Positions 31,564 to 36,914 are shown, numbered from the whole stretch's first letter. The stretch: 60,186 bases of DNA, filler included, from 8 parts of 8 records of this genome joined end to end with filler, not necessarily neighbours in it; one strand, 5' to 3'. Numbers and translations: made by a program. Notes: generated from the letters alone by a model not told the origin.

Positions 31564-31725
31564 NNNNNNNNNNNNNNNNNNNNNNNNNNNNNNNNNNNNN
31601 NNNNNNNTTAATTAATTAANNNNNNNNNNNNNNNNNNNNNNNNNNNNNNNNNNNNNNNNNNNNCCCCCCCTTCGCACCCACTTAAAGCAATAAAGCAAAA
31701 ACGTCTTTATACTCATGCCTGAAAA

Positions 31726-32088
31726 CTAGCCGGCATACCCTGCAGGCGCTTCGATGTCCACTTCCTCCAGGCAAGGCAGTCGCTTCAATTCAAGGATTCG
31801 ATTTTCAATCTGCGTCCCCTCCAACTCCAGGACGATAACAAAGAACCGGTCCAACCCCGAGGCCTTCTCGTTATCGGCAGGCCCCTGATCGGGTGAGGAT
31901 AAATCGAAAACGGGATATACGCTCGTGGGAGGGTATCGTTCCAACCACTCGTTGACGAGAGAGACGTCTCCGCTCTCGGAAAGAAATTTGCTGTTCCGCA
32001 AGGAGACCTGCCGTCCCTCCGCGAATTTGAGAACAATCCGTACGAGTGATATTTTTTCTGCCATAAACAAATTATCGTATCGATTCAT
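31726..32088 (-). CDS. Stand-alone subtilase prodomain/inhibitor-like protein
   Basis: Aligns by eye with the upstream S8 propeptide: GLDRFFVIVL...LKRLPCLEEVDIEAPAGYA versus DLERFYHITA...LEKNDLVEEAYFEPPSYPA. Confidence 0.6.
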   Translation of the reverse strand: MNRYDNLFMAEKISLVRIVLKFAEGRQVSLRNSKFLSESGDVSLVNEWLERYPPTSVYPVFDLSSPDQGPADNEKASGLDRFFVIVLELEGTQIENRILELKRLPCLEEVDIEAPAGYAG

Positions 32089-32293
32089 CACAATGGCCCT
32101 GTGCCGCCCTCGAAAGATTGTCTGTCGCCTGAATGGCGACATCGAGCCCTATGAACAGATTTTTGCGTCCCTCGGACCGGGCGGTGGGAGGCCATCGTAT
32201 AAAGAGGGGTATTGTTTCCAATCATCAACCCCGAAAGGACGACCGTGACACTTGTCCCCCAGCCGAATTCACGGTCTTGTAATTCCCGGAAGA

Positions 32294-32328
32294 CGGGCCG
32301 GCCCACAAGCGCTTGTGGGCCGGCCTGC
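32294..32328 (-). terminator. GC-rich stem-loop after the small gene
   Basis: GGCCGGCCCACAAG-CG-CTTGTGGGCCGGCC. Confidence 0.65.
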
Positions 32329-32337
32329 CGTCGGTAA

Positions 32338-32679
32338 TCAGTTTCCTTCTACAACAATACCTACGATCATTCCGTCGTTGTACCAGACCCTCACGTTGCT
32401 GCCGGAACCCAGGAAGGCCCGCTGCACCACGTCCTGGATGCTCCCGCTAGGGTTGTCCAAACGCTTCCAGGCATTGTTGACGTAAAGCCACAAGCTCCGG
32501 GCGCTGCCGGCCGGATAGGCAACTAGCTCGAGCCAGTACTTAGTCGCCACACCCGAAGTGACAGCCGCCACATCGGCCCCGGCCAGCCCACTGGGCGGAA
32601 TGGTAAACGCTCCTCCGGCACCCTGCCCGCCGGGCATCCCAAAACCTGCTGCAAGTGGAGATGTCGATGATTGAGTCAT
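32338..32679 (-). CDS. Small protein: Gly/Ala/Pro-rich leader plus a copy of the S8 C-terminal domain
   Basis: RBS AAGGGAG. Residues 40-113 match the protease C-terminus at 59 of 74 positions. Confidence 0.88.
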   Translation of the reverse strand: MTQSSTSPLAAGFGMPGGQGAGGAFTIPPSGLAGADVAAVTSGVATKYWLELVAYPAGSARSLWLYVNNAWKRLDNPSGSIQDVVQRAFLGSGSNVRVWYNDGMIVGIVVEGN

Positions 32680-33018
32680 GTCTTTGCTCCCTTAGTTAGA
32701 TGGTTTGATTCAAGCCCTCGTAATTAATTATCGTTTTCGGTGATACCGGCCCCTGTTCGCGTGAAACGAACACCACCGGCATCCTGTCAGCTATTAAGTT
32801 CCTTCTACTACCAGCCCCATAATCGTTCCGTTGTCGTACCAGACCCGCACGTTGTTGCCAGTACCCAGGAAAGCCTCCTGTACTGCATCCTGAATGCTCT
32901 CGCTGGGATTGTCCAAACGCTTCCAGGCATTGTTAACGTACAGCCACAAGCTCCGTGCACTGCCGGGCGGATAGGCGACCAGTTCGATCCAATATTTTGA
33001 AGCGATTCCGGATGTGAC
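32338..33018 (-). repeat. Direct duplication of a 225-nt coding domain (32338-32562 and 32794-33018)
   Basis: Ungapped alignment with many third-position differences. Confidence 0.92.
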
Positions 33019-34452
33019 CTTCGGCTGAGGAATCTTGAGAATTGCATCCTTAAGGTCCGGGCGGTTGCCGATGCGTTGCGTCTTGGGACCGTTTGGACCA
33101 TCGGTCTGGGGAGAACCGGTCGTACGGAAAATATTTCGCAGCTCGGTATACGTTAACAGTTGACCCCCTCGATCCTTCTGAATGCCCAACAGGCAGGCTG
33201 CGGCACCAACGACAATCGGCGAAGCACTTGAGGTTCCGCTGAATGACCGGGTGTACCACCTGTTCTTATTGGCGCCGCCTTGCAGACCACCGTACCCGGT
33301 GCTGACCACTTCGCGTCCCCAGCCCTGGGCATCGACGATCTGCCCGTAATTTGAGAATCCGAGCCGCGAGCCGATCGGGGCCGAAGTTCCCGCTCGACGG
33401 TGCGCCGGCGCCGACAATTAATGCGCCAGAATCCCGTTTTTTGCGATCGAACCGCCCTTGATAGACGGCGTCGTCGAGGTTCTGCGAACCATTGCCGGCA
33501 GCGGCGATCACAATAACACCTTTGGCGGTTGCATATTGAACCGCCGCAAAGTCGGCAGACCACCATTCGATAGCGATAAAACCGAATTGACCCTGCCCAG
33601 TGGCATTCGGTCCGGCCCGGTGCAGTTCGATAAGAATGATGTCGCCTTTGTTCAGCTTGTCGGCCGCTGTCTTCAGAGCCTTGGCGGGAGAGTTACCGGT
33701 ACCAAAAATCGAAACCGCCGAGAACTGGGCCAAATCAGCGATTCCTGTAACACCGAAACTGTGGCGATCGCCGCTGATCTCTCCCTGTACAGCCGTGCCG
33801 TGATTCTCCCAGCCAAGATCGCTGGTGGGCGTACCCCCGACCACTCCGCCCTGGTTGAGCAGCAGATCCTCATGGCCGAAGTTCCAGGCCCCTTCGATGT
33901 CGATAACATGAATTCCCTGTCCACGCCCGCCGTTATGCGTCCAGGCATGCTTGGCATCGACGCCCGCAGGTGCAGGGTTCAGGTAAGTCTGCTGGTTGGT
34001 GAAATCCGGAGTGGCAGGCAATAAGGTGTCTGCCGAAACGTCTTCCGGAGGATCGAAAATGGCCGGATAAGAGGGTGGCTCAAAGTACGCCTCCTCAACC
34101 AGATCGTTTTTCTCAAGATCCGCAGCTATCGCCTTTGCCTGGCTATCATCCTTGGCGGTGATGTGGTAAAACCGCTCAAGGTCGGAACCGGAAGATTCGT
34201 GGACGAGGCAAGGCTTGCCGTCACCCGATCGAGCTCCTCCTCCGTCTCCGCGAAGGTCCTCTCAATAGAAACATCGGCGTACTTGCTCAGGATCTTCTGC
34301 ACGGACGCGACGTCCGCACCGTTTGCTGAAGTTAAATTGTTGTCTGCAACGCGGGTTTGCGCTTCCTTTTTGAAGCACACAACGGCCTTGCCTTCCTTGG
34401 ATACGCTCGGAAATTCGAATCCAGCTTCGTCATTACCTTTTTTCTCGACCAA
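32794..34452 (-). CDS. S8 family serine peptidase (prodomain, catalytic domain, 74-aa C-terminal domain), frameshifts near 34180 and 33370
   Basis: RBS GGAGGT plus TTG. Asp (VIDIEG), His (ENHGTAV), oxyanion Asn (AAGNG) and Ser (FSGTSSASP). No signal peptide. Confidence 0.9.
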
Positions 34453-34862
34453 AATGCACCTCCAAAAAAAAGTGATAGGGTGATGAAAGATCTTTTTTTT
34501 CTATCAATACCATAACATAAATCTATGATTTGTCATGCTGTTGCACAAAATCTTTTTTAGTTGTTGCTTATGTACATAAATATGAAAGCCCAAACCAAGA
34601 GCTTGTGCTCGCACTGGGCTTTCTGGTAACTGACGGTTCAGGCCAGATAAGTTCCCCTGAGCTTGTCAATCGAAGGTATTGATACAGTGAAATTCTTAGT
34701 AGAATATTCTCTGATAATGATGGTTTTGTTAAATGAAATTCAGACCCCTTTTTTCTGAAAAGTTTTCTCAGATTGTTTGGGTAGTTTGAAATTGGTGTTA
34801 TGGATTTGTTCTTACGAACCTTGCAATTAAAGAAAGCGGACCTGAGTGGGCTTAAAGAAAAT

Positions 34863-34942
34863 CCTCAGAAATGACAAATGGCCCATCCAGAAATTGGTTG
34901 GGCCATTTTGTTGTTTTTTATATGGTGACAAATAAAAACGTC
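34863..34942. repeat. Hairpin element copy 1 (other copies near 35205-35286 and 36752-36831)
   Basis: AATGGCC...(G/A)CCATTT stem followed at identical spacing by RGT and AAMGT. Confidence 0.65.
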
Positions 34943-35049
34943 AACGGCTCAAATGCCAAAAGAAAAAACTTTTTTCTGGATAACTTTTGATAAAATCATA
35001 ACAAAAAGTCTGTCGGTTTCACGTTCAAAAATTAATTCCTCTTTGGCCC

Positions 35050-35190
35050 ATGGATCCGCGTTATTACAAACCTACCCAAATTTTTAACACACTCACTCCT
35101 GCCCTCGGTTTTTTTCTGAGCCTCCCCGGACTTGTGTTATTAGTCGCTCATGCATCAAGTAGCGGAAACGGCTGGCATCTTGTAAGTTTT
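35050..35190 (+). pseudogene. Hemolysin III (YqfA/PAQR) family 5' fragment
   Basis: FNTLT.ALGFFLSLPGLVLLV..ASSSGNGWHLVSF resembles the HlyIII N-terminus, then breaks off just before repeat copy 2. Confidence 0.6.
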
Positions 35191-35282
35191 GAAGTGGGCA
35201 AAAAACCTTTCAAAATAAGAATGGCCTACCCGGGTTTTTGGGTAGACCATTTAAGCGTCTGAAAAAAGGTAGTTTAAAAGAA

Positions 35283-35369
35283 AGTTAATATCGCGCATGA
35301 TCAGCGGCGAAAAGCAGAAAACGAAGCAGCGCAGCTATTCACTGTCTGAAGTCCATGCGCTTGTTGTCT
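35283..35369 (-). mobile_element. Integron attC site (degenerate R')
   Basis: Minus strand AGACAAC-AAGCGCATG...CATGCGCGAT-ATTAACT, 87 bp, about 28 nt after the metallopeptidase stop. Confidence 0.7.
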
Positions 35370-35397
35370 CCTCGTCTGTTGTCAGTAACTGGGAGCC

Positions 35398-36488
35398 TTA
35401 GTACAGCATGATTGCACCACTCCCCTGCGCCATTGCGTAGTAGAGCCGCGTTCGTAAAAGGTACTGGCGACCACGATGAAGGCGAGTGACGATCTTGGCG
35501 TTATAGTCAAGACCGCTGTCGTCATCACCATCCATGTATTCTTGTATACCGTCACGTATCTCAAAAAGAACCATAACCGTATCCATCTGACCAAAAGTCT
35601 GGATGGTGTACTCTCTGTTGATAGGAGGGCTTATCATGAAATCAACCTGTTCCCCGGCAGCAATGGTTAACCTTTGCGATTCGTAGGGCCGAAGTTCTGG
35701 TGGGCTTTCTTCCAGTGCAGGGTACAGGCGCCGCACGGTCTCCACATCGAGCGGCGAAAGGCCACTCGCAGGAATCAAAGGATGTGTCTGGTACTCTGAT
35801 GGTTGCTGAATAAGGCCAGCCTCGAACTGGTAATGCATTATCGAATCTTTGTCCCAATCTGACCCGTCCACAGTATTTGCCGAAATCTTGCGGATAATGT
35901 TCCAATACGCTTTATCCCTGGACCAGTAGTTAGGTGGACCACCAAGACTTTCATATACCTTTTCTTCATCCCAGACAATGCCCGCTTGCGGGTTCTGGTG
36001 TTCATGAGGAAAGCCGAGGACATGCCCCAATTCGTGAAGAGCCGTATCACGGCCATATGGGGTAGTCAAATTCCAGCCGTAGTTAGTTGTGCGCTCTGCG
36101 GGGTCTTTGGCATAATCGATACAGTCCCGGCCTACATAGGACCAAGAGCCGTCGGACTGATCAAAACCAATTCTTATCATGGCATCAGCAGCATCACTCA
36201 CTTCCTGAAAAGTCAGCCCTATACCCAATCCCTTCCATTCAGCAAAGGCATCCCGCACAGCCTGTTCCTGTTCACTCCCGCCGCGCCAATTAGCAGGCTC
36301 TTTGAAGAAGAAGTATTTGATATTTGTCCCATTCACCCACATCTTCGCCATCACTACTATAAGGCGGAGCCTGAGACCATCCGTGATGTGGCTGAGGTCA
36401 CGTTCTTGCACCTCGGGCAAGGAACAACAAAGGGACCGACCTTCAGCGGGTGCCTCTGCAAATTCTTTGGATTTCTTTTCCTAGCCAT
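35398..36488 (-). CDS. M12/astacin-like metallopeptidase with C-terminal PPC-like domain (frameshift near start)
   Basis: HELGHVLGFPHEH, Met-turn SIMHY, GSWSYVG, C-terminal DDDSG motif. RBS AGGAG before ATG 36488. Confidence 0.9.
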
Positions 36489-36840
36489 CGTTGCTCTCCT
36501 TTCTCTTTCTGAAGCTATTAAGTATTTATGCAGCTTTAAGATAACAAAATGACATAGTCTTCATTGGTATTTTAAATATCTCCCACAAAAAGCTTATCAA
36601 GATAAAATGATAACTCCACTTTTAAAATAGATTTATGGAAATAGGCCCCAGTTTAAGAAACTTCTGATCCAAAAGGACGTTTGGGGTACTGGAGGGATTA
36701 TTACAAACCCTGGCTTATAAGAATTTTGATCAGGGCCGGCTGGAACTAAAACCTCAAAAATGGCAAATGGCCCCACCATTTTCTGGTAAGGCCATTTTCG
36801 TGTCTGATTGATAGTAACATTTAAGAACGTTTTTCTGCCG

Positions 36841-36914
36841 CCTCAACGTTTGAGCTACACGGTTTGAGCGCGTCGTTTTCAGCGATTTTAGCAGGACGTT
36901 GAAAAACTAGCCTG
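36841..36914 (-). mobile_element. Right half of an attC-like site cut off by a probable IS terminus at the contig end
   Basis: Minus strand ...CCGTGTAGCTCAAAC-GTTGAGG. Plus strand GCAGGACGTTGAAAAAC resembles IS1182/IS5-type ends (from memory). Confidence 0.4.

What the first reader, a model, noticed from the sequence alone, without database searches (positions are those of the whole stretch)
32338..33018. The duplicated 74-aa domain has the pattern of an AB5-toxin B-subunit OB fold, suggesting a SubAB-like toxin with one B subunit fused to A
Seen: predicted order beta(SGVATKYWLEL), beta(SLWLYVN), beta(AWKRLD), helix(SIQDVVQRAFL), G, beta(NVRVWY), beta(IVGIVVE). The 21-aa identical core carries six synonymous changes and no amino-acid change, which points to purifying selection on both copies. 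Established: AB5 B subunits such as StxB are roughly 70-100-aa OB folds with this order and a helix-A-xxx-G-xx-V-x-I/V turn, and subtilase cytotoxin SubAB pairs an S8 protease with such a pentamer. Inference: a hetero-ring of one protease-fused plus several free protomers. The exposed Trp/Tyr residues would suit glycan or nucleic-acid binding.
Basis: inference. Interest (0 to 1): 0.8.

Follow-up and report, generated by a model that had tools for sequence, protein, structure and literature searches.

The report
Leaderless protease cassette with Shiga-B-like domain
A soil and marine bacterial protease carries a small barrel domain shaped like the binding subunit of Shiga toxin, and the next two genes encode free copies of that domain and of the protease's front domain; it looks like a self-regulating protease set, not an exported toxin.

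Summary
Two 74-aa copies (window 32341-32562 and 32797-33018, minus strand) are 59/74 identical. They share a 21-aa identical run with six synonymous changes (dN 0.11, dS 1.0).

AlphaFold2 gives a confident beta-beta-beta-helix-beta-beta OB barrel. Its best solved matches are Shiga toxin B subunits (Z 6.3-7.0), about one Z unit above generic OB folds; SubB scores 5.4.

One copy ends an S8 subtilase and the other is a free 113-aa protein. This pairing is present in 18 of 18 related loci that have enough downstream DNA.

The SubAB-like AB5 toxin reading is not supported:
- 0 of 83 free-copy relatives and 0 of 120 protease relatives have a signal-peptide-like N-terminus.
- The window copies have no cysteine.
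- There is no sequence link to any toxin B family.
- The protease belongs to a large leaderless family with interchangeable C-terminal modules.

Best reading: a three-gene cassette in which free copies of both end domains act on the protease in trans, by propeptide-like inhibition and by OB-OB docking. Ring assembly could not be tested.

The two frame breaks in the protease are absent from an independent assembly.

The parts
32794..34452 (-). S8 subtilase gene, colinear with an intact 554-aa homologue (L001). In this record it is read in three frame pieces. Rough parts: N-terminal pro-like domain about 34069-34452, catalytic domain about 33039-34009, C-terminal OB domain 32797-33018.
   Evidence: tblastn of the L001 protease gives three colinear pieces covering residues 1-96, 93-362 and 355-554, at 52-78% identity. 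Pfam PF00082 matches both larger pieces. The catalytic Asp, His, Ser and the oxyanion Asn are invariant in the 44-sequence family alignment. The AF2 model of the L001 homologue has pLDDT 89.4 and pTM 0.83.
34160..34175 (-). First frame break of the protease in this record
   Evidence: The frame changes between L001 residues 96 and 97. The independent contig of run X1 differs from the record by one letter in length at 34167.
33365..33380 (-). Second frame break of the protease in this record
   Evidence: The frame changes at L001 residue 362/363. The independent contig of run X1 differs by one letter in length at 33371.
32797..33018 (-). Fused copy of the 74-aa OB domain (C-terminus of the protease)
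   Evidence: Domain HMM score 133.4. 80% identical to the free copy. In the L001 model the same region folds as strands 482-491, 503-508 and 511-516, helix 520-531, strands 535-542 and 545-553.
32338..32679 (-). Free OB protein, 113 aa: a disordered Gly-rich N-terminal tail (32563-32679) with a conserved T-x-P motif, then the OB domain (32341-32562)
   Evidence: 84 relatives at E<=0.01, none with a name or a Pfam domain except one weak outlier. P28 is invariant and T26 at least 90% conserved in the 71-sequence alignment. AF2: the 10-residue blocks of the tail (1-40) average pLDDT 35-60 and those of the domain 84-97.
32290..32335 (-). Strong RNA hairpin just after the stop of the free OB gene, without a U tract
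   Evidence: Minimum free energy -38.4 kcal/mol, z -5.06, 0 of 200 shuffles as stable. Not listed by the terminator scan.
31726..32064 (-). Third gene, about 112 aa (start uncertain; the ORF could begin at 32142): a free copy of the protease's N-terminal pro-like domain
   Evidence: Profile-profile comparison with the protease N-domains gives probability 96.6%, E 4.9e-10, 99 columns. Homologues lie downstream of the free OB gene in L001 and L002, with weaker ones in L003, L004, L006 and L026. The Atlas leads are Peptidase_S8_N at 0.88 and Fervidolysin_NPro-like at 0.87, leads only.
34509..34536 (-). Promoter-like site upstream of the protease start
   Evidence: Consensus scan, 9 of 12 matches with TG before the second hexamer. 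A pattern match only.

Best explanation
This is a conserved three-gene protease cassette with no export signals, not an exported AB5 toxin.

The genes:
- Gene 1 is an active-type S8 subtilase built from a fervidolysin/I9-like N-terminal pro-domain, the catalytic domain and a C-terminal 74-aa OB domain of the compact Shiga-toxin-B shape.
- Gene 2 is a small protein with a disordered tail (conserved T-x-P motif) followed by the same OB domain.
- Gene 3 is a small protein that is a free copy of the pro-domain.

Shown: the gene order, the homologies, the fold, purifying selection, the absence of signal peptides, and the conservation of the pairing.

Inferred: the two small proteins act on the protease in trans through the surfaces used by its own end domains. 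The free pro-domain copy acts as a propeptide-like inhibitor or folding helper, as free-standing I9 proteins do for fungal subtilases. The free OB protein associates with the fused OB domain by like-with-like contact. That would tether the protease to an OB-protein oligomer, or gate it. The C-terminal module of this protease family is its targeting part. In sister proteases that position is taken by lectin-like or peptidoglycan-binding domains.
For: Fold:
- AF2 of the free protein: 59 of 113 residues at pLDDT 90 or more, nearly all in the 74-aa domain, with OB topology.
- Best matches are Shiga toxin B subunits at Z 6.3-7.0 covering nearly the whole chain and pertussis S5 at Z 6.7.

Pairing:
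- A fused copy plus a free copy just downstream occurs in 18 of 18 loci with a fused-OB protease and enough downstream DNA. These are the window, L001-L007 and ten metagenome loci; L037 and L040 are near-duplicates. Three further loci end too early.

General rule for the family:
- A second, unrelated 88-aa C-terminal module also has a free copy downstream in 10 of 18 loci.

Third gene:
- hhalign 96.6% against the protease N-domain.
- Found in 8 of 13 OB-type loci with enough DNA.
- A separate N-pro-like small ORF, mostly just upstream of the protease, lies in 41 of 68 non-OB loci of the same protease family.

Protease:
- The family alignment keeps Asp, His, Ser and Asn invariant.
- Best structural matches are fervidolysin and unprocessed pro-subtilisin E.

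No export signal: 0/83 and 0/120.

Variable C-terminal modules in sister proteases:
- Pfam families PF01471, PF18885, PF17660, PF18998 and PF20328.
- Tails whose motifs I read as ricin-type and tectonin-type lectins, by recall.

Precedents:
- Free-standing I9 inhibitors PBI2, PoIA1 and TrI9 (bioRxiv 10.64898/2026.05.05.722857, passages).
- Homotypic adaptor pairs in neighbouring genes (PMC7159879, passages).

The gene is probably intact: an independent assembly lacks both frame breaks.
Against: - No direct evidence that the fused and free OB domains touch, or that any oligomer forms.
- OB proteins of the same family also occur alone. 14 of 22 genome loci have no S8 match within about 6 kb. Six of these, in Methanosarcina, carry signal peptides. 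So the OB protein has a function of its own that need not involve a protease.
- The T-x-P tail motif is kept in these orphan forms too, so it is not specific to the protease.
- Identity between fused and free copies falls to 33-40% in one lineage (L037, L040, L045), where the free copy has lost the conserved tryptophans. This sits poorly with strict like-with-like assembly.
- The pro-domain assignment of gene 3 rests on a profile comparison and weak family leads: Pfam PF16361 matched 1 of 4 members at E 0.0056. No structure was predicted for it.
- The third gene was not detected in 5 of 13 OB-type loci.
- Several sister C-terminal modules are typical of extracellular proteins. That conflicts with a purely cytoplasmic reading and leaves the site of action open.
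Confidence: 0.45

Rival explanations
1. AB-type toxin or delivery particle. The free OB protomers and the fused one close into a Shiga-B-like ring that binds a glycan on a target cell and carries the protease in. Export would be by a route that needs no Sec signal.
For: The nearest solved structures are toxin B subunits. The enzyme gene is followed by the OB gene as in AB5 operons. Sister proteases carry lectin-like or cell-wall-binding C-terminal modules, so an outward-facing binding role for this position is plausible. A secreted branch of the OB family exists in Methanosarcina and others: 15 of 92 cluster representatives have a hydrophobic N-terminus.
Against: No signal peptide on any of 83 free-copy or 120 protease relatives, whereas SubA and SubB have confirmed ones (PMC2213318). 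The Z lead over unrelated OB folds is about 1 unit, which the tool counts as a tie, and SubB is Z 5.4. No cysteine in the window copies and no sequence link to toxin families. The hosts are soil, sediment and marine Actinomycetota, Acidobacteriota and the like, not known pathogens. A third gene for a pro-domain copy has no counterpart in AB5 operons.
Confidence: 0.12
2. Enzyme and substrate. The free OB protein is the protease's dedicated substrate. OB-OB docking places its disordered tail in the active site, and cleavage releases either an N-terminal peptide or a trimmed OB protein as the working product.
For: The free copy of the OB type always has a 30-150 residue disordered tail with conserved short motifs (T-S-P near the N-terminus and T-x-P about 15 residues before the domain). 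The protease keeps its catalytic residues. The strict gene pairing.
Against: The same tail motif is kept in orphan OB proteins with no protease nearby. The free copies of the second, 88-aa module have no tail at all, so a tail cannot be the common point of the fused-plus-free design.
Confidence: 0.15
3. No contact between the copies. The C-terminal OB domain is a ligand-binding targeting module (glycan, cell-wall polymer or nucleic acid). The free protein binds the same ligand on its own, either competing with the protease or serving an unrelated role.
For: OB folds commonly bind sugars or nucleic acids, and the hit list mixes toxin B subunits with SSB, PriB and RecO. Orphan and secreted OB proteins exist. 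Four tryptophans and a tyrosine are invariant. Sister proteases carry known binding modules.
Against: It does not explain why a free copy is kept next to the protease in 18 of 18 loci, or why a second unrelated module shows the same arrangement. In L001 and L002 the fused and free copies are each other's closest relatives, with starred support. That points to repeated duplication or gene conversion, and hence to matched partners.
Confidence: 0.2
4. Decaying pseudogene. The protease is broken by two frame shifts, so the cassette is non-functional in this organism.
For: Two frame breaks in the record.
Against: An independent contig of run X1 (depth 13.7, probably the source sample) differs from the record only at these two places. 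There is no stop codon inside any of the three pieces, and identity to L001 is 76-78% in the two larger pieces.
Confidence: 0.03

Closest known systems
Shiga toxin B subunit and other AB5 B subunits (pertussis S4/S5, LT-II B, SubB)
   Same: Compact five-stranded OB barrel of about 70 residues with one helix between strands 3 and 4. The match to StxB covers 62-64 of 67-71 residues at rmsd 2.2-2.5 A. The gene lies directly after the gene of an enzyme.
   Different: 11-13% identity and no profile match. No signal peptide. No cysteine in the window copies. One copy is covalently fused to the enzyme. Oligomeric state unknown. Hosts are environmental bacteria and archaea. SubB itself is only Z 5.4.
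Subtilase cytotoxin SubAB
   Same: An S8 protease gene followed by a small OB-fold protein gene.
   Different: SubA and SubB are Sec-exported, with signal peptides confirmed (PMC2213318). SubA is not among the 50 best structural matches of the protease model; this is no proof of distance. There is no fused B copy and no third pro-domain gene in SubAB. From recall: SubA joins the pentamer through a C-terminal helix.
Free-standing I9 propeptide-like inhibitors (yeast PBI2, Pleurotus PoIA1/2, Trichoderma TrI9)
   Same: A small separate protein homologous to the subtilase's own N-terminal pro-domain. These inhibit the cognate protease, and some of them help it fold (bioRxiv 10.64898/2026.05.05.722857, passages).
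   Different: Those are fungal or plant proteins and are not encoded in an operon with the protease. Here the copy is in the same cassette, and a similar small ORF accompanies 41 of 68 sister proteases. Inhibition was not tested. From recall only: Spi, encoded next to speB in Streptococcus, is a bacterial precedent for a different protease class.
Fervidolysin (PDB 1r6v) and pro-subtilisin E
   Same: Best Foldseek matches of the full protease model, at E 2.7e-16 and 5.2e-16. Both retain an N-terminal propeptide, and fervidolysin also has C-terminal beta domains.
   Different: Those enzymes are secreted, and their C-terminal domains are not OB folds.
Effector-associated domains (EADs) of bacterial conflict systems
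   Same: The same small domain is present in two proteins of neighbouring genes and is proposed to join them by like-with-like contact (PMC7159879, passages).
   Different: EADs are mostly helical and link effectors to NTPase cores. No NTPase is seen here, and the second partner is little more than the domain itself.

Membership tests
AB5 toxins (SubAB type) | B subunit is a small OB-fold protein | tested here: met
   AF2 model with OB topology. StxB Z 6.3-7.0, pertussis S5 Z 6.7, SubB Z 5.4.
AB5 toxins (SubAB type) | Both A and B subunits carry Sec signal peptides and assemble outside the cytoplasm | tested here: not met
   No 12-residue hydrophobic window in the first 45 residues of 0/83 free-copy and 0/120 protease relatives. 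The window N-termini are polar. SubA and SubB signal peptides are confirmed in PMC2213318.
AB5 toxins (SubAB type) | B subunits form a pentameric ring | not testable with these tools
AB5 toxins (SubAB type) | A subunit is a separate chain held in the ring by a C-terminal helix (recalled feature) | tested here: not met
   The protease ends in a complete OB domain joined by a short linker.
AB5 toxins (SubAB type) | Sequence relationship to a known B-subunit family | tested here: not met
   0 Pfam and 0 NCBIfam families for the free protein. 0 of 27 domain copies hit a toxin family at E<=10. The best PDB sequence match is E 0.26, to an unrelated protein.
AB5 toxins (SubAB type) | Glycan receptor binding by the B subunit | not testable with these tools
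   Needs a glycan array or a co-crystal.
Peptidase S8 (subtilases) | Asp-His-Ser triad and oxyanion Asn within the subtilase fold | tested here: met
   PF00082 at E 5.2e-17 for L001, and 6.2e-7 and 6.6e-5 for the window pieces. D186, H219, N322 and S409 are invariant in 44 sequences. Subtilisins at Foldseek E about 1e-15.
Free-standing I9 / subtilase N-pro-like proteins (gene 3) | Homology to the pro-domain of the cognate subtilase | tested here: met
   hhalign probability 96.6%, E 4.9e-10, 99 columns.
Free-standing I9 / subtilase N-pro-like proteins (gene 3) | Membership of the curated I9 or S8 N-terminal families | tested here: inconclusive
   PF16361 matched 1 of 4 members at E 0.0056. Atlas leads of 0.88 and 0.87 are below the 0.9 mark. 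No PDB sequence match for the N-domain profile.
Free-standing I9 / subtilase N-pro-like proteins (gene 3) | Inhibits the protease or helps it fold | not testable with these tools
   Needs an enzyme assay.
Homotypic adaptor pairs (EAD-like logic) | The same domain in two proteins of adjacent genes, conserved across lineages | tested here: met
   18 of 18 OB-type loci, and 10 of 18 loci of a second module type.
Homotypic adaptor pairs (EAD-like logic) | Physical like-with-like contact | not testable with these tools
   No complex model was obtained.

The most novel reading that the evidence does not exclude
The OB family is a non-toxin relative, or an independent reinvention, of the Shiga-type B subunit. 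It would form a ring in which one protomer is covalently the tail of a subtilase. That would make a built-in A-B particle used by environmental bacteria, with secreted free-ring forms in Methanosarcina. It would sit inside a wider, undescribed rule: a leaderless subtilase family is encoded together with free copies of its own end domains as a two-key control.
Probability: 0.12. Interest if true: 0.85.

Novelty: new variant of a known kind. Interest (0 to 1): 0.55.

Why it matters
If the reading holds, it defines an unnamed protein family and an unreported design for controlling a subtilase.

The family:
- It has 94 clusters at 50% identity.
- It has no Pfam, NCBIfam or PADLOC model.
- Its fold is that of the smallest toxin B subunit.

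The design is that the operon supplies free copies of both the pro-domain and the targeting domain. The pro-domain companion alone is seen in 41 of 68 sister loci, so the rule may cover thousands of uncharacterised proteases in soil Actinomycetota, Acidobacteriota and cyanobacteria.

The finding also gives a concrete and cheap test of whether Shiga-B-like rings exist outside toxins, which bears on where AB5 binding subunits came from. It is not evidence of a new toxin.

I found no paper describing this. Searches for DUF6623, subtilase with homotypic adjacent genes, Shiga toxin B structural homologues and standalone I9 in bacterial operons returned nothing relevant.

Tried and rejected
No oligomer model exists, and this says nothing for or against binding.
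- Whole-genome search of the window's own assembly: no genome is held.
- Word-index search for relatives of gene 3: only 1 hit. The family was instead followed through loci.
- Sequence families for the OB protein: none in Pfam, NCBIfam or PADLOC. No PDB sequence match better than E 0.26.
- Protein Atlas for the OB protein: only unnamed clusters at 0.89-0.90.
- Foldseek of the OB model against the PDB: no match at E<=0.001; the best is LT-IIb B at 0.018.
- Earlier notes of this scan: nothing by place, sequence or words.
- Sequencing runs: no RNA holder listed. Runs X2 and X3 gave only pieces of 35-50 bases under 90% alike, so they say nothing about habitat or about the frame breaks.
- Context genes around OB-type loci: ECF sigma factors upstream in L001 and L003. 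BTAD regulators beside L003, L005 and L007. A PAC2-family gene upstream in L037 and L045. None is shared by all loci, so none was taken as part of the cassette.
- The neighbouring Zn-metalloprotease gene (35398-36420) has no counterpart in related loci and was set aside.
- A defence-system reading: only a weak subtilase hit in PADLOC, at E 1.1e-4.

Full report
SETTING. The 60,186-base window is a chain of contigs joined by N linkers. The finding lies on the piece 31664-36914 (5,251 bases, GC 0.50). Its coding part is at GC 0.55-0.59, between neighbours at 0.39 and 0.48. All genes of interest are on the minus strand:
- an S8 protease, 32794-34452;
- a 113-aa ORF, 32338-32679;
- a further ORF, 31726-32142;
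- upstream and separate, a Zn-metalloprotease-like gene, 35398-36420.

THE OBSERVATION. It is correct in every detail that could be checked.
- The two 74-aa copies lie at 32341-32562 and 32797-33018. They are 59/74 aa and 176/222 nt identical.
- The 21-residue identical run has exactly six codon differences, all synonymous.
- Over the domain, dN is 0.110 and dS 0.997.
- The DNA on either side is unrelated. These are old paralogues kept by selection, not a recent repeat.

THE FOLD. The free protein was folded with an alignment of 71 relatives.
- The first 40 residues have low confidence. The domain is confident: 59 of 113 residues at pLDDT 90 or more.
This is the classical OB order.
- Foldseek found nothing at E<=0.001. 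Its best rows were LT-IIb and Shiga B subunits mixed with RuvBL, eIF5A and SSB OB domains.
- The search that does not depend on Foldseek put pertussis toxin S5 (Z 6.7) and Stx2 B (Z 6.3) first, followed by a run of OB folds at Z 5-6.
- The second look at Foldseek's top 999 chains put Shiga toxin B subunits in ranks 1-13 (Z 6.3-7.0, rmsd 2.2-2.5 A, 62-64 residues aligned of chains 67-71 long). Then came pertussis S4 (6.1), DUF2500 (5.9), SilF, RecO and PriB (5.7-5.8), and SubB (5.4).
- So the domain is an OB fold and its nearest solved shape is the Shiga B subunit. The lead over unrelated OB folds is about one Z unit, which the tool itself treats as a tie, and all values are under the level of 8 at which it advises trust.
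- Sequence gives no link. There is no Pfam or NCBIfam family, and no PDB sequence better than E 0.26.

THE PROTEASE.
- The window gene is colinear with an intact 554-aa homologue (L001, a Candidatus Multivoradales MAG). It is read in three frame pieces, with breaks near 34167 and 33371.
- A contig assembled independently from run X1 holds 97% of the sampled words, so X1 is probably the source sample. That contig differs from the record at exactly those two places and nowhere else in 2,821 bases. I therefore treat the gene as intact and the breaks as errors of the record.
- The family alignment keeps the catalytic Asp, His and Ser and the oxyanion Asn invariant.
- The AF2 model of the L001 protein (pLDDT 89.4, pTM 0.83) shows four parts: an N-terminal alpha/beta domain (about 23-125), a low-confidence linker (130-150), the subtilase core, and the OB domain at 482-553.
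- Its best solved matches are fervidolysin and unprocessed pro-subtilisin E, then ordinary subtilisins.

DISTRIBUTION OF THE OB FAMILY.
- The free protein has 84 relatives at E<=0.01. Almost all are 100-120 aa, and none has a name.
- An exhaustive profile search of 1.84 billion cluster representatives found 94 clusters. Nearly all are small proteins with the domain at the C-terminus.
- In one genome per species, 22 loci were found:
  - Seven (L001-L007: Acidobacteriota, Ilumatobacteraceae, Gaiellaceae, Thermoleophilaceae, Kribbella) have the fused-plus-free pair.
  - One (L015) ends inside the protease.
  - Eight bacterial loci and six Methanosarcina loci have a lone OB protein with no S8 match within about 6 kb.
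  - The Methanosarcina proteins start with a signal peptide.
- A scan of metagenome contigs with the protease profile gave 80 more loci, twelve with the OB tail.
- Across all sources, 21 loci have a fused-OB protease. Three of them end too early. All of the other 18 have a free copy just downstream. L037 and L040 are near-duplicates. In L037, L040 and L045 the free copy is only 33-40% identical and has a Gln-rich tail of about 150 residues.
- In a tree of 45 domain copies, the fused and free copies of L001 and of L002 are sisters with starred support. In the Actinomycetota groups the fused and free copies form separate clades. The base of the tree is unresolved.

NO EXPORT SIGNAL. A 12-residue hydrophobic window in the first 45 residues was used as a proxy. 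It is found in 0 of 83 close relatives of the free protein, in 0 of 120 protease relatives, and in 15 of 92 cluster representatives of the OB family. Most of those 15 are clear signal peptides of the secreted branch. SubA and SubB both have signal peptides confirmed by N-terminal sequencing (PMC2213318, passages read).

THE THIRD GENE.
- The ORF after the free OB gene (best start 32064) has homologues in the same position in L001 and L002.
- Its profile matches the N-terminal domains of the proteases: hhalign probability 96.6%, E 4.9e-10, 99 columns.
- Weak family leads agree. PF16361 matched one of four members. The Atlas gave Peptidase_S8_N at 0.88 and Fervidolysin_NPro-like at 0.87, below its 0.9 mark.
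- With a profile of the N-domain, a separate small ORF of this kind is found in 8 of 13 OB-type loci with enough DNA. It is also found in 41 of the 68 non-OB loci, there mostly just upstream of the protease.
- A free pro-domain-like companion is thus a family-wide trait.

THE PROTEASE FAMILY HAS INTERCHANGEABLE TAILS.
- More than 4,285 relatives share the N-domain and core.
- After the core come different modules: the OB domain, an 88-aa module with a W-P-x-x-W-H-V motif, Lys/Glu-rich low-complexity tails, DUF5648 repeats, PG_binding_1, BTRD1, DUF6623 and others. I read two further tails, from recalled motifs only, as ricin-type and tectonin-type lectins.
- The 88-aa module also has a free copy just downstream in 10 of 18 loci. 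Of the eight without one, five have more than 700 bases of downstream DNA. These free copies have no N-terminal tail, and the three examples scanned against Pfam (L047, L061, L075) match no family.

WHAT IT IS NOT. The features that define an AB5 toxin, beyond the fold, are not met or could not be tested:
- There are no signal peptides.
- The A part is not a separate chain held by a helix.
- There is no sequence tie to a B family.
- There is no cysteine in the window copies.
- Ring formation and glycan binding were not tested.
- The third gene and the modular protease family have no counterpart in AB5 operons.
I therefore do not file it as a SubAB-like toxin. The resemblance in design, an enzyme with a Shiga-B-shaped partner, stays a live minority reading.

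HOW IT MOST LIKELY WORKS. This part is inferred.
- The cassette supplies, in trans, copies of both non-catalytic ends of the protease.
- For the N-terminal copy there is direct precedent: free-standing I9 propeptide-like proteins inhibit their subtilases and sometimes chaperone them (bioRxiv 10.64898/2026.05.05.722857, passages).
- For the C-terminal copy, the simplest account of a strictly conserved fused-plus-free pair, seen for two unrelated modules, is like-with-like contact. The same has been proposed for adaptor domains shared by neighbouring genes in bacterial conflict systems (PMC7159879, passages).
- Whether that contact builds a ring, a dimer or a larger assembly is open. So is whether it tethers, gates or feeds the protease.

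OBSERVATIONS THAT CUT AGAINST A SIMPLE DOCKING MODEL.
- Orphan and secreted OB proteins exist.
- The tail's T-x-P motif is invariant in the orphans too.
- One lineage has strongly diverged free copies.

NOVELTY. No model library names the OB family, and four literature searches found no description of the cassette. Supplementary files were not consulted. I rate it a new variant of known kinds: a subtilase with a propeptide-like companion, and a homotypic domain pair.

Noticed in passing
window 1-60186: The window is eight contigs joined by 44 N + 12 A/T letters + 44 N. Contig GC ranges from 0.377 to 0.523, and the finding's contig (coding GC 0.55-0.59) sits between pieces at 0.39 and 0.48. The bin may mix organisms, so neighbouring contigs say nothing about this cassette's host.
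   Followed up: partly
window 35398-36420 (-): A 340-aa protein with an HExxHxxGxxHE zinc-protease motif. It matches Pfam Matrixin and Astacin (E about 1e-8). It also matches the NCBIfam model named 'beta-glucuronidase AbsR1' over its whole length (E 3.8e-112, 375 bits, below the 650-bit cut-off). That name is odd for a protein with a metalloprotease motif. No counterpart in related loci.
   Followed up: partly
window 32290-32335 (-): A 13-bp perfect GC-rich hairpin (extended structure -38.4 kcal/mol, z -5.06) directly after the free OB gene's stop, with no U tract. It could set the ratio of gene 3 to genes 1-2, or stabilise the upstream message.
   Followed up: partly
L047, L049, L050, L061, L065, L067, L075, L076, L078, L086: A second protease C-terminal module of 88 aa (W-P-x-x-W-H-V motif; the three free copies scanned against Pfam (L047, L061, L075) match no family) also recurs as a free, tail-less small protein just downstream of the protease, at 54-68% identity.
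   Followed up: partly
L024-L102 (41 of 68 non-OB loci): A small ORF matching the C-terminal half of the protease's N-domain lies mostly just upstream of the protease gene in the sister subfamilies. One hit (L088) lies within the protease's span in another frame and is doubtful.
   Followed up: partly
L037, L040, L045; P0260, P0275, P0277, P0286: Some free OB proteins carry Gln-rich, prion-like N-terminal tails of 100-160 residues and a diverged OB domain that has lost the conserved tryptophans. In L037 and L045 a PAC2-family gene lies upstream.
   Followed up: no
L016-L020, L022 (Methanosarcina); P0208, P0215, P0225, P0231, P0261: A secreted branch of the OB family has a signal peptide, a Ser/Thr-rich linker that still holds a T-[ST]-P-like motif, and then the OB domain. 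No protease lies nearby.
   Followed up: partly
L006 4113-5901: The protease of this long-contig MAG locus is spread over at least five frame pieces. It is either heavily error-laden or a pseudogene.
   Followed up: no
L001 3563-4093, L003 3451-4041; L003 6658-7470, L005 3475-4308, L007 3101-3964: ECF-type sigma factor genes lie directly upstream of the protease in two loci, and BTAD-domain regulator genes lie beside it in three. This may bear on when the cassette is expressed.
   Followed up: partly
P0134, L024 (tail after the S8 core): Some sister proteases (one from a MAG labelled Nitrosopumilus) end in a Tyr/Arg/Cys/Leu-rich tail of 50-80 residues with a repeating R-Y-L-x-x-Y-Y pattern. 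It matches no known family.
   Followed up: no
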